Source of the DNA: a virus
Taxonomy: Duplodnaviria; Heunggongvirae; Uroviricota; Caudoviricetes
Virus record (IMG/VR): IMGVR_UViG_2582581022_000009
Length of the DNA stretch: 15,216 nucleotides
Strand: one strand, 5' to 3'
Below are positions 11,660 to 12,488 of this stretch, piece after piece (the first letter of the stretch is position 1; each line of letters starts with the position of its first letter). A program made the translations under genes and the position numbers. The notes under the pieces were generated by a model. That model was not told the DNA's origin. It was given only the letters and a program-made list of their open reading frames with translations, and did not search any database.

Positions 11660-12488
11660 GGTTTACCCCCTTGCTGACTGGCTTAACCTGCGCCCTGACG
11701 TGATTTACGTGACGGGCGAATTTCTGCTCCCACTGAACCTGCGTGAAAACTTTCCCCTCCGCTGCCCAGTAGTCCCGGAAAGCGGCAAGTTCAGCAGGTG
11801 TAAATTCCGGCTCCGGCAAAGCCATCCCCCACAACGCAGCCCGTCGTCGAAAATCCGGCGACGGATGCCAGTCATCGACCATCGGAAATTTCCCGATGGG
11901 TTCGCTCAGTCCATCCAGGGATGCAGGTTCTGCTGCCTGCAACGGCGTACCACTCGACTCACTGGTCGGAGCACTCTCGCGCACGTGCGCGTTATGTGTG
12001 GGGTTTAATTCTTTATCTGTATCTTTATCTGTCGTGACTCGTCGTGACATGTCGTGACATATGCGTGACTCGTCGTGACACCCCTCATTCTGTTTTCGTA
12101 ATTTTTCCCTCTCGCGCTGCGCTCTCTTGCGCTCTGCCGGGGATTTCGCGGTTTGTGAAACGTTGCCATTGTCCTCTTTCAGTACCTGGCGTTTTTCCCA
12201 TCCGGTGATTAAATCTCCATCAAGTACCCGCCCCTGCATTGCCTGTAAAATTGAATCAATTACTTCTTCCGTCACATCAAGCGCACTTGCTAAATCTTCC
12301 GTCGTGACATCAATGTGACCACGTAGTGACACGCCGTGACATGTCGTGACATTTCGTGACGCGCTCACCAGAAGGTGGATATACACTGCCATCACTGTTG
12401 CAATTGGCTGCCCTGACACCCTGGCAATTGTTCGCCACTTAGGGTCATTTGGCATGTCATGCCATAATCTGAGCCAGGCGTTAGCCAT
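11448..12488 (-). CDS. Replication initiator / replisome organiser (lambda O-like) containing the origin iterons
   Basis: Immediately upstream of the P-like gene; two iteron clusters lie inside the CDS as in lambda O/ori; GAGGTG RBS before ATG 12488 (ORF track GTG 12494). Confidence 0.6.
   Translation of the reverse strand: MANAWLRLWHDMPNDPKWRTIARVSGQPIATVMAVYIHLLVSASRNVTTCHGVSLRGHIDVTTEDLASALDVTEEVIDSILQAMQGRVLDGDLITGWEKRQVLKEDNGNVSQTAKSPAERKRAQREREKLRKQNEGCHDESRICHDMSRRVTTDKDTDKELNPTHNAHVRESAPTSESSGTPLQAAEPASLDGLSEPIGKFPMVDDWHPSPDFRRRAALWGMALPEPEFTPAELAAFRDYWAAEGKVFTQVQWEQKFARHVNHVRAQVKPVSKGVNHAAAPGGTASRAVQEIRAAREQWERENGFISDGNGLEAVGTHGGGLFEPLDPEERGRTFEALDCTDWRDD
12011..12080. repeat. Iteron cluster 1 (putative ori): five phased GTCGTGAC-type repeats preceded by AT-rich tandem TCTTTATCTGT x2
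   Basis: GTCGTGAC at 12031, 12041, 12051, GCGTGAC at 12063, GTCGTGAC at 12072; ~10-bp phasing; AT-rich 12001-12030. Confidence 0.6.
12301..12360. repeat. Iteron cluster 2: six phased (N)CGTGAC / GTGAC repeats
   Basis: GTCGTGAC 12301, ATGTGAC 12313, TAGTGAC 12324, GCCGTGAC 12333, GTCGTGAC 12343, TTCGTGAC 12353; spacing 10-12 bp. Confidence 0.55.

What the first reader, a model, noticed from the sequence alone, without database searches (positions are those of the whole stretch)
12001..12370. Two separate iteron arrays inside the O-like initiator gene
Lambda-type origins have one iteron cluster plus an AT-rich region inside O. Here the GTCGTGAC motif forms two phased arrays about 270 bp apart (12031-12079 and 12301-12360), the first adjacent to an AT-rich tandem repeat (12001-12030). 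The second array lies in the N-terminal coding part and could be an autoregulatory site, a duplicated origin, or an incompatibility determinant.
Basis: seen in the sequence. Interest (0 to 1): 0.45.

Follow-up and report, generated by a model that had tools for sequence, protein, structure and literature searches.

The report
Two-part replication origin inside prophage initiator gene
A prophage replication-initiator gene found in about 40% of complete E. coli genomes carries two separate clusters of the same short DNA repeat, and both are kept by selection on the DNA itself, so the phage origin is probably two-part rather than lambda's single cluster.

Summary
On the minus-strand gene 11448-12488, GTCAC(G) occurs 11 times in one orientation at 10-11 bp spacing. 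Five copies lie at 12034-12079, next to an AT-rich repeat. Six copies lie at 12304-12360. The phased pattern occurs 6 times against 0.01 expected.

The gene is not a lambda O homologue. It has a winged-helix N-domain without a Pfam family, a DnaT-like ssDNA-binding C-domain, and a lambda-P-like gene downstream.

Both arrays are cis elements, not protein repeats:
- The motif is read in all three frames.
- In 20 diverged relatives from gamma- and beta-proteobacteria, the codons under array 2 are synonymously fixed (GTC, ACG, GGT, CAC 20/20), while other invariant residues use 3-6 codons.
- In 40 close variants the six direct cores have 0/30 variable sites, against 32% elsewhere.
- Relatives with other repeat motifs (GTAACG, CGAACGC, GCAACGC, TAACGC) switch both arrays together.

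Only array 1 has a conserved AT-rich unwinding region (20/20 loci), so a duplicated origin is unlikely.

Best reading: array 1 plus the AT tract is the core origin, and array 2 is an accessory initiator-binding site that cooperates with it. Negative control is not excluded. I found no published description. I rate it a new variant of a known kind.

The parts
11448..12488 (-). Initiator (replisome-organizer) gene, 346 aa. ATG at 12488 with GAGG upstream.
   Evidence: ORF and translation. PHROG 1408/3729 'replication initiation protein', E 2e-116 and 9e-93. NCBI sources name relatives 'phage replisome organizer' or 'DnaT-like ssDNA-binding domain-containing protein'.
12174..12488 (-). N-terminal winged-helix domain coding region (aa 1 to about 105). 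The presumed iteron-binding domain.
   Evidence: AlphaFold2 models give H1-b1-H2-H3-wing topology with pLDDT above 90 over most of the domain. 60-70% identity across gamma- and beta-proteobacteria. No Pfam family.
12304..12360 (-). Array 2: six direct GTCAC(G) iterons (gene nt 129-185) at 10-11 bp spacing. They encode the end of helix 1 and the b1 loop (aa 44-62). The array includes a 21-bp (7-aa, TCHGVSL) insertion that adds two iterons relative to most relatives.
   Evidence: Synonymous fixation in 20 relatives. 0/30 variable core sites in 40 close variants. Insertion seen in the alignment.
12271..12275 (+). Single inverted iteron core. It reads GTGAC on the gene strand at gene nt 214-218, 33 bp past array 2.
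   Evidence: Present at the equivalent position (nt 193) in most GTCAC-type relatives. Codon V65 is GTG in 18/18.
12034..12079 (-). Array 1: five direct GTCAC(G) iterons (gene nt 410-455). They encode the end of helix 117-137 and the start of the disordered linker.
   Evidence: Relatives have 3-9 copies in all three reading frames at 10-bp spacing.
12001..12032 (.). AT-rich tract (TCTTTATCTGTA x2; GATAAAGATACA on the gene strand, coding D-K-D-T-D-K). The presumed DNA-unwinding element, and also the mosaic junction between the N-half and C-half of the gene.
   Evidence: TRF. GC 35%. A GC dip of -0.32 directly after array 1 in 20/20 relatives. The megablast match sets abut at 12010-12030.
11978..11991 (.). 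GC-rich perfect palindrome CGCGCACGTGCGCG flanking the AT tract.
   Evidence: GCGCANNTGCGC is kept in close relatives and in Serratia L003.
11688..11888 (-). DnaT-like ssDNA-binding domain (aa 201-267).
   Evidence: Pfam PF17948, E 9.6e-18. Foldseek match to 4ou6 (DnaT84-153 with ssDNA): E 9e-6, target TM 0.87-0.91, 58% identity.
10994..11455 (-). Lambda-P-like helicase-loader gene. The likely start, ATG at 11455, overlaps the initiator stop codon. The open frame extends upstream to 11659.
   Evidence: Pfam PF06992, E 5e-16. PHROG 109 'P-like helicase loader', E 2e-63. Translation. Rac-SA53 ydaV annotation.

Best explanation
The region is a bipartite origin of replication that lies inside the initiator's own gene. 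Array 1 (five GTCAC iterons) plus the adjoining AT-rich (GATAAA)n tract is the core origin. Initiator monomers bind head-to-tail, one per helical turn, through the winged-helix N-domain. The AT tract then melts, the DnaT-like C-domain holds the single strands, and the P-like protein brings in host DnaB. Array 2 (six iterons plus one inverted copy, about 230 bp upstream, inside the DNA that encodes the N-domain's helix 1-b1 loop) is a second, obligatory binding cluster for the same initiator. It most likely cooperates with array 1 by looping or wrapping the intervening DNA into a larger initiation complex. Shown: both arrays are conserved at the DNA level, they co-occur and co-switch motif, and only array 1 has an AT tract. 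Inferred: that the N-domain is the binder, that the arrays cooperate, and the order of events.
For: (1) Phased arrays far above chance.
(2) The selection acts on DNA, not protein. In 20 relatives from Serratia, Pseudomonas, Bordetella, Chromobacterium, Acidovorax and others, the codons under array 2 are fixed: V47 GTC, T48 ACG, G50 GGT, H51 CAC, V54 GTC and T55 ACG are each 20/20, S44 TCA is 19/20 and A43 GCG is 18/20. Other invariant V, G, T, R, L and P residues in the same genes use 3-6 codons, with 1.4-2.0 bits of entropy.
(3) Array 1 is read as V-T, C/G/R-H or S-R/S-H/S-Q in different relatives at a constant 10-bp spacing.
(4) In 40 close variants, 0/30 sites in the direct cores vary, against 99/307 outside.
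(5) The motif switches in both arrays together: GTCACG, GTAACG, CGAACG(C), TAACGC and, in Ralstonia phage Firinga at 38% identity, GCAACG(C), at nearly the same gene positions. The commonest hexamer of the array-2 zone occurs at 11.6/kb in the array-1 zone and 0.46/kb in the rest of the gene, and 30 of 42 loci have both arrays.
(6) An AT-rich dip follows array 1 in 20/20 loci. The dip after array 2 is weak, seen in 7-8 of 20.
(7) Domain content fits an initiator: winged helix, DnaT ssDNA-binding domain and a P-like loader downstream.
(8) Precedent: the SPP1 G38P replisome organizer binds repeats next to an AT-rich unwinding element embedded in its own gene 38 (PMC5737612).
Against: No binding or replication data exist for this family in the literature I could search. 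The identity of the binder rests on analogy. The arrays sit in or next to the N-domain coding sequence, so their co-inheritance with it is not independent evidence. The distance between the arrays shows no strict helical phase across loci: 219-247 bp among the GTCAC-type loci, and roughly 170-320 bp once L016 and the other motif classes are included. About 12 of 42 relatives fail the strict two-array test, and some of them (L025, L030, L034, Microcystis phage) show no arrays at all. The architecture is therefore not universal. Cooperation and negative control cannot be told apart by sequence.
Confidence: 0.5

Rival explanations
1. Array 2 is a negative control element, not part of the origin. 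Initiator bound there either pairs with array 1 on the same or a sister molecule (handcuffing or titration, as with the P1 incA and F incC control iterons), or blocks RNA polymerase within the first 190 nt of the gene, so that initiator and loader synthesis is self-limited. It would also make co-resident prophages of the same iteron class interfere with one another.
For: Array 2 carries the same motif as the origin array but has no AT-rich tract of its own. Its copy number is stable at 6 in 44 of 46 close variants, while array 1 varies from 4 to 9. It lies early in the operon, upstream of both the initiator body and the P-like gene. The segment occurs in up to 5 places in one E. coli genome, so cross-talk is possible. 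Control iteron arrays in plasmids are well established (general knowledge; reviews PMC4980987 and PMC3401445 listed).
Against: A lytic phage origin gains little from copy-number limitation. Array 1 would be just as good a roadblock, so roadblocking does not explain a second array. No sigma-70-like promoter overlaps either array, so classic promoter-occlusion autoregulation does not apply.
Confidence: 0.25
2. Array 2 is a second, independent origin: a duplicated ori that can fire by itself.
For: In this window a 35% GC stretch (12240-12279) lies 20-60 bp past array 2 and contains the inverted iteron. Array 2 has as many iterons as array 1 or more.
Against: The AT dip after array 2 is weak and seen in only 7-8 of 20 relatives, and it lies in sequence that encodes a conserved helix. 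After array 1 the dip is -0.32 in 20/20. No (GATAAA)n tract and no palindrome accompany array 2.
Confidence: 0.07
3. The repeats are a by-product of coding or of slippage and gene conversion between the two sites, and have no cis function.
For: The 21-bp insertion in this window and the 4-9 copy range in array 1 show that slippage or duplication does happen. The loop amino acids R-G are conserved across motif classes, so some constraint acts at the protein level.
Against: Complete fixation of synonymous codons over large evolutionary distances, in genes whose other synonymous sites are saturated. The motif is kept in three reading frames. Cores are invariant while spacers vary. At least five motif classes change in both arrays together.
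Confidence: 0.03

Closest known systems
Phage lambda ori inside gene O, with the P helicase loader
   Same: The origin lies inside the initiator gene, at the boundary between the DNA-binding N-domain and the C-domain. The order is iterons, AT-rich tract, palindrome. A lambda-P-family gene lies immediately downstream (PF06992). Exchange is modular, with the N-half plus iterons moving as one unit and the C-half as another.
   Different: No sequence relationship to lambda O. The iterons are 5-6 bp cores in direct repeat every 10-11 bp, whereas lambda has four 19-bp inverted repeats (general knowledge). The C-domain is DnaT-like. A second conserved array lies inside the N-domain coding region, which lambda lacks.
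Bacillus phage SPP1 replisome organizer G38P with oriL embedded in gene 38 (PMC5737612)
   Same: A non-AAA+ replisome organizer binds repeats (AB boxes) next to an AT-rich unwinding element inside its own gene, and also binds a second discrete site (oriR). Weak profile similarity to the PHROGs 'replisome organizer' and 'DnaD-like helicase loader' (E 4.5e-5 and 4.8e-7).
   Different: In SPP1 the second site is described as a separate discrete region of the phage genome. From memory it is about 32 kb away, not in gene 38. There is no Pfam-level match to the organizer N-domain families. The C-domain and the loader are different.
Phage P4 ori plus crr (cis replication region)
   Different: In P4 the clusters are about 4.5 kb apart and the initiator is a primase-helicase. 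Here they are about 230 bp apart inside one gene, and whether array 2 is needed is untested.
Control iteron arrays of plasmids (P1 incA, F incC, RK2, Vibrio chrII)
   Same: A second array of origin-type iterons lies away from the unwinding element (reviews PMC4980987 and PMC3401445 listed).
   Different: Those arrays lie outside the rep coding sequence and limit copy number in stably maintained replicons. This is a lambdoid-type prophage module with immunity genes nearby.
Rac prophage YdaU-YdaV module (oriJ)
   Same: The C-terminal half of this gene and the start of the P-like gene are 93% identical to ydaU/ydaV of phage Rac-SA53. The neighbouring gene order is the same: ydaS-like, ydaT-like, initiator, loader. 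Rac is reported to have an active origin, oriJ (PMC3945230).
   Different: The N-half of Rac-SA53 YdaU is unrelated in sequence and has no GTCAC arrays. By eye it looks like a DUF1376-type domain, which I did not test. The specificity module here is therefore a different one. The primary oriJ paper (Potrykus 2000) was not available.

Membership tests
Lambda O initiator / lambda-type ori | N-terminal domain homologous to lambda O (Pfam Phage_rep_O) | tested here: not met
   The full protein shows only PF17948 at E<=0.01. The N-domain alone at E<=10 gives only a chance-level HTH_Crp_2 hit.
Lambda O initiator / lambda-type ori | Iterons followed by an AT-rich tract inside the initiator gene, at the domain boundary | tested here: met
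   Array 1 at 12034-12079, then the AT tract at 12001-12032. The same order holds in 20/20 relatives.
Lambda O initiator / lambda-type ori | Iterons are about 19-bp inverted repeats bound by initiator dimers | tested here: not met
   The units are direct repeats with a period of 10-11 bp and an invariant 5-6 bp core.
Lambda O initiator / lambda-type ori | Lambda-P-type helicase loader encoded directly downstream | tested here: met
   PF06992, E 5.2e-16. PHROG 109, E 2e-63.
Phage replisome organizer (SPP1 G38P / DnaD-like N-domain) | N-domain matches the curated organizer families | tested here: inconclusive
   No Pfam hit. Weak PHROG hits to 4880 'replisome organizer' (4.5e-5) and 10469 'DnaD-like helicase loader' (4.8e-7). 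The fold is a winged helix, with only weak Foldseek matches to CRP/MarR proteins and to initiator N-domains 4pta/4pql (E 1.5-4).
Phage replisome organizer (SPP1 G38P / DnaD-like N-domain) | The protein binds repeats inside its own gene and opens an adjacent AT-rich element | not testable with these tools
   This needs EMSA or footprinting and an unwinding assay. Only the sequence anatomy is shown.
DnaT (primosomal protein I) | C-terminal three-helix ssDNA-binding domain | tested here: met
   PF17948, E 9.6e-18, aa 201-267. Foldseek 4ou6: E 9e-6, target TM 0.87-0.91. PDB profile hit 6aep, E 0.0066.
DnaT (primosomal protein I) | Full-length equivalog of host DnaT | tested here: not met
   NCBIfam NF002770 scores 97 bits against a cutoff of 201, and the match covers only profile positions 80-166.
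Bipartite origin (P4 ori/crr type) | Two separated clusters of the same iteron | tested here: met
Bipartite origin (P4 ori/crr type) | Both clusters required in cis for initiation | not testable with these tools
   This needs a mini-replicon deletion or recoding assay. The only indirect support is the co-occurrence and co-switching of the two arrays.
Plasmid-type control iterons (handcuffing) | Removal of the second array raises copy number, and the array inhibits in trans | not testable with these tools
   No experimental data were found.

The most novel reading that the evidence does not exclude
The b1 loop encoded by array 2 may itself be part of the surface that reads the iteron. It is the only part of the otherwise near-invariant winged-helix domain that differs between iteron classes, and it keeps an Arg-Gly motif in every class. 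If so, the same nucleotides would be both the binding site and the code for the specificity determinant. A change in the repeat would then alter protein and target together, giving a built-in route to new, mutually compatible origin specificities and to immunity from co-resident prophages.
Probability: 0.1. Interest if true: 0.85.

Novelty: new variant of a known kind. Interest (0 to 1): 0.55.

Why it matters
This replication module is very common. The segment is in 2201 of 5426 complete E. coli genomes, in up to five places per genome. At least 583 IMG/VR viral stretches encode a relative. Relatives occur across gamma- and beta-proteobacteria and in Ralstonia and Pseudomonas phages. Yet I found no description of its origin.

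If a second iteron cluster inside the DNA-binding-domain coding sequence is required, the family would be a compact, easily manipulated model for two questions. One is how separated initiator arrays cooperate, or restrain each other, at a phage origin. The other is how a protein-coding sequence tolerates a strict overlapping DNA code.

Iteron class could also predict which co-resident prophages, including Stx-phage neighbours, can cross-activate or interfere with each other's replication.

A practical point: the invariant GTCAC cores explain the odd conserved V-T, G-H and S-R residues, and they could be used to call origins automatically in this family.

Tried and rejected
- **Lambda O membership:** rejected, with no Pfam match.
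- **Protein-repeat explanation:** rejected. The motif is read in three frames and synonymous codons are fixed.
- **Duplicated origin:** disfavoured. There is no conserved AT tract after array 2.
- **Internal promoter or known RNA overlapping the arrays:** none found by the sigma-70/terminator scan or by Rfam.
- **Iterons elsewhere in the window, such as the cro/repressor intergenic region:** only three isolated CGTGAC copies outside the two arrays.
- **Conserved helical phase between the arrays:** the spacings of 219, 227, 229, 231, 238, 239 and 247 bp scatter over about half a turn, and coding constraints confound them. I claim nothing from them.
- **Solved structure for the N-domain:** only the DnaT domain matched.
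- **Literature:** searches on ydaU/ydaV, oriJ, replisome organizer with iterons, DnaT-like, non-lambdoid Stx phages and two iteron sets found no description of this architecture. The oriJ plasmid paper (Potrykus 2000) and the Weigel and Seitz review are not held, so prior description there cannot be excluded.
- **Rac-SA53 YdaU:** I looked for an equivalent two-array layout. Only scattered TGTTCAA copies turned up, which is not convincing.

Full report
**1. Observation**

The gene lies on the minus strand at 11448-12488 and encodes 346 aa. Its ATG is preceded by GAGG. On the gene strand the core GTCAC, usually GTCACG, occurs eleven times in one orientation.
- Six copies lie at gene nt 129-185 (window 12304-12360, 'array 2').
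- Five copies lie at gene nt 410-455 (window 12034-12079, 'array 1').
- Spacing within each array is 10-11 bp.

GTGAC-N5-GTGAC is found six times in the window, all inside the arrays, against 0.01 expected from shuffles. Directly beyond array 1 lies TCTTTATCTGTA x2 at 12010-12032, in a stretch of 35% GC. Beyond that lies the perfect palindrome CGCGCACGTGCGCG at 11978-11991. A single inverted core lies at 12271-12275.

**2. What the gene is**

Pfam finds only a DnaT ssDNA-binding domain, at aa 201-267 (E 9.6e-18). This is confirmed by structure: Foldseek matches 4ou6, the DnaT84-153-ssDNA complex, with E 9e-6 and target TM 0.87-0.91.

The N-terminal 130 aa have no Pfam family, even at E<=10. 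AlphaFold2 models them with high confidence as a winged helix of topology H1-b1-H2-H3-wing. PHROGs call the protein a replication initiation protein, and there are only weak links to 'replisome organizer' and 'DnaD-like' profiles.

The neighbourhood is as follows:
- Downstream: a lambda-P-like loader gene (PF06992), whose probable ATG at 11455 overlaps the initiator stop codon.
- Upstream: YdaT/CII-like and YdaS/Cro-like genes, and a divergent HTH repressor.

This is the replication block of a Rac-like lambdoid prophage. It plays the role of lambda O without being homologous to it.

The gene is mosaic. Window 11400-12030 is 93% identical to ydaU/ydaV of phage Rac-SA53. Window 12010-12600 matches a different phage set (689R5, Evi, Tritos) at 88-90%. 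The junction is the AT tract. The N-half of Rac-SA53 YdaU is unrelated in sequence. The N-domain plus both arrays therefore moves as one unit.

**3. Are the arrays functional DNA or coding by-products?**

Four independent lines point to DNA-level selection.

(a) *Reading frames.* In the window the core is read as S-R, V-T, C-H, V-S and G-H, which covers three frames. In relatives, array 1 is read as V-T, C/G/R-H or S-R/S-H/S-Q at a constant 10-bp spacing. The peptide varies while the DNA does not.

(b) *Synonymous sites.* In 20 relatives with no indels in the first 110 codons, the codons under array 2 are fixed. The relatives come from Serratia, Rahnella, Pseudomonas, Bordetella, Chromobacterium, Aquitalea, Acidovorax, Castellaniella, Gilvimarinus and others, with gene GC of 41-67%.
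- V47 GTC, T48 ACG, G50 GGT, H51 CAC, V54 GTC and T55 ACG: each 20/20.
- S44 TCA: 19/20. A43 GCG: 18/20. V65 GTG (the inverted copy): 18/18.
- Other invariant V, G, T, R, L and P residues in the same genes use 3-6 codons, with entropy of 1.4-2.0 bits.

(c) *Microevolution.* Among 40 distinct close variants from IMG/VR, none of the 30 positions in the six direct cores varies. The 5-nt spacers do vary, and 32% of sites outside the arrays vary. Array 2 has six copies in 44 of 46 variants and four copies in 2. Array 1 ranges from 4 to 9 copies. The window's six-copy state comes from a 21-bp, 7-aa insertion (TCHGVSL) that adds two iterons while keeping both the reading frame and the helical register.

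(d) *Co-switching.* Relatives with a different motif change it in both arrays together, at nearly the same gene positions.

| Motif | Loci | Array 2 (gene nt) | Array 1 (gene nt) |
|---|---|---|---|
| CGAACG(C) | L029, L031, L033, an uncultured podovirus | about 131-164 | about 359-389 |
| GTAACG | L022, L026, L032 | about 139-224 | about 368-451 |
| TAACGC(AGG) | L004 | 123-164 | 435-456 |
| GCAACG(C) | Ralstonia phage Firinga (38% identity) | 130-182 | 401-431 |

Over 42 loci, the commonest hexamer of the array-2 zone occurs at 11.6/kb in the array-1 zone, against 0.46/kb in the rest of the gene. Thirty loci meet a strict two-array criterion. All motif classes share an ACG core, which fits a conserved reading head.

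*Exceptions.* Three low-GC loci (L025, L030, L034) and the Microcystis phage show no arrays. Cyanophage Cy-LDV1 has only a weak array 1. L035 and L037 have a different C-terminal part.

**4. Which array is the origin core?**

Aligned on the last iteron of array 1, all 20 GTCAC-type relatives show a GC drop of 0.22-0.32 below the gene mean over the next 30-40 bp. This is the (GATAAA)n tract that codes D-K, D-T or E-K repeats. After array 2 the drop is only 0.09, and it is seen in 7-8 loci. Array 1 codes the end of a long helix and the start of a disordered linker with pLDDT below 50. Array 2 codes the end of helix 1 and the b1 loop of the winged helix, where pLDDT is about 70.

So array 1, the AT tract and, in this lineage, the palindrome reproduce the lambda ori layout. 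Array 2 is an extra element without an unwinding region of its own. No promoter-like site or Rfam RNA overlaps either array.

**5. Mechanism**

The best-supported model has these steps.
- Initiator monomers bind one per helical turn, head-to-tail, on both arrays.
- The two filaments interact across about 230 bp by looping or wrapping. The conserved inverted copy possibly acts as a cap or bend point.
- The resulting strain melts the AT tract.
- The DnaT-like domain binds the exposed strands.
- The P-like protein delivers DnaB.

The anatomy and the selection are shown. The binder, the cooperation between arrays and the order of events are inferred from lambda O and from SPP1 G38P.

The main rival is that array 2 restrains initiation or initiator expression, by handcuffing, titration or roadblocking. 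Sequence cannot separate this from cooperation, and both could hold. A duplicated origin and a non-functional by-product are both unlikely.

**6. Comparison with known systems, and novelty**

The kind of system is known: an origin with iterons and an AT tract inside the initiator gene. Lambda, SPP1 and RepA_N plasmids are examples. Two-cluster iteron systems are also known, including P4 ori/crr and the plasmid control arrays.

Four features are different here:
- the initiator family, which pairs an unclassified winged helix with a DnaT-like domain;
- the short direct iterons;
- a second array embedded in the coding sequence of the DNA-binding domain itself;
- conservation of that array with complete synonymous fixation, and switching of its motif in step with the origin array.

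I found no description of this in the searchable literature. I therefore rate it a new variant of a known kind, with moderate interest.

The most novel reading still open, at about 10%, is that the loop encoded by array 2 helps read the iteron. It is the only part of the domain that differs between motif classes, and it keeps an R-G motif in every class. Binding site and specificity determinant would then be the same nucleotides.

**7. Prevalence**

The 511-bp segment is present in 2201 of 5426 complete E. coli genomes, in up to five places per genome. It is 100% identical to strain 118UI, and the protein is 98% identical in Escherichia albertii.

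Noticed in passing
window 12010-12030 (junction); 11400-12030 versus 12010-12600: The initiator gene is a mosaic. The C-half plus the start of the P-like gene is 93% identical to ydaU/ydaV of phage Rac-SA53 and the PPompW prophages. The N-half matches other phages (689R5, Evi, Tritos) at 88-90%. The break lies exactly in the AT-rich tract, which Rac-SA53 shares although its N-domain is unrelated in sequence. The unwinding element therefore also seems to act as a recombination joint.
   Followed up: partly
window 11978-11991: A perfect 14-bp GC-rich palindrome, CGCGCACGTGCGCG (coding N-A-H-V-R-E), lies immediately beyond the AT tract. It recalls the palindrome to the right of lambda ori. 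GCGCANNTGCGC is kept in close relatives and in a Serratia locus (L003), but it was not found in most other relatives.
   Followed up: partly
window 10994-11659 (minus strand): The P-like reading frame stays open for about 205 nt upstream of its probable start (ATG 11455), overlapping the 3' end of the initiator gene in another frame. The Pfam lambda-P match begins 14 codons before that ATG. One PHROG profile (15931, 482 positions) matches the initiator and the P-like protein end to end. This suggests a longer overlapping form, or a fused or frameshifted form in some phages.
   Followed up: no
L035 (Serratia MAG) 3001-3300 and L037 (Pantoea) 3001-3330: Here the conserved N-domain is joined after about aa 105 to a different C-part (YVYYV...GISRNPWAR...). 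No GTCAC-type arrays are present. L037 instead has clustered CTACG/CGTAG repeats at gene nt 330-372 and 643-695.
   Followed up: no
L025, L030, L034 (Entomomonas and Ventosimonas MAGs): These family members keep the (GATAAA)n tract (up to 8 units in L034) but show no detectable iteron arrays at either position. Their iterons may be too degenerate to detect, or their origin may lie elsewhere.
   Followed up: partly
one search hit list; Many NCBI entries for this protein are 'partial', in clusters of hundreds to more than 1000 members, and the segment occurs in up to 5 places per E. coli genome. Draft assemblies apparently break inside this gene because co-resident prophages share it.
   Followed up: no
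all loci: All five iteron classes (GTCACG, GTAACG, CGAACGC, GCAACGC, TAACGC) share an ACG core, and the loop peptide keeps an Arg-Gly pair in every class although it is encoded in different frames. Protein-level and DNA-level constraints seem to act on the same nucleotides.
   Followed up: partly
window 5710-5754: A tandem repeat with a 20-21 nt period (about ATGCCCTAATGCATGACCTAA, 2.1 copies), unrelated to the origin.
   Followed up: no
L039 (Rac-SA53 ydaU) gene nt 149, 360, 426: In the Rac-SA53 initiator, TGTTCAA occurs once in the N-domain coding part and twice (plus an inverted TTTGAACA) just before the AT tract. This hints that an unrelated N-domain type may also have origin-type sites at two places. 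The copies are too few to judge.
   Followed up: partly
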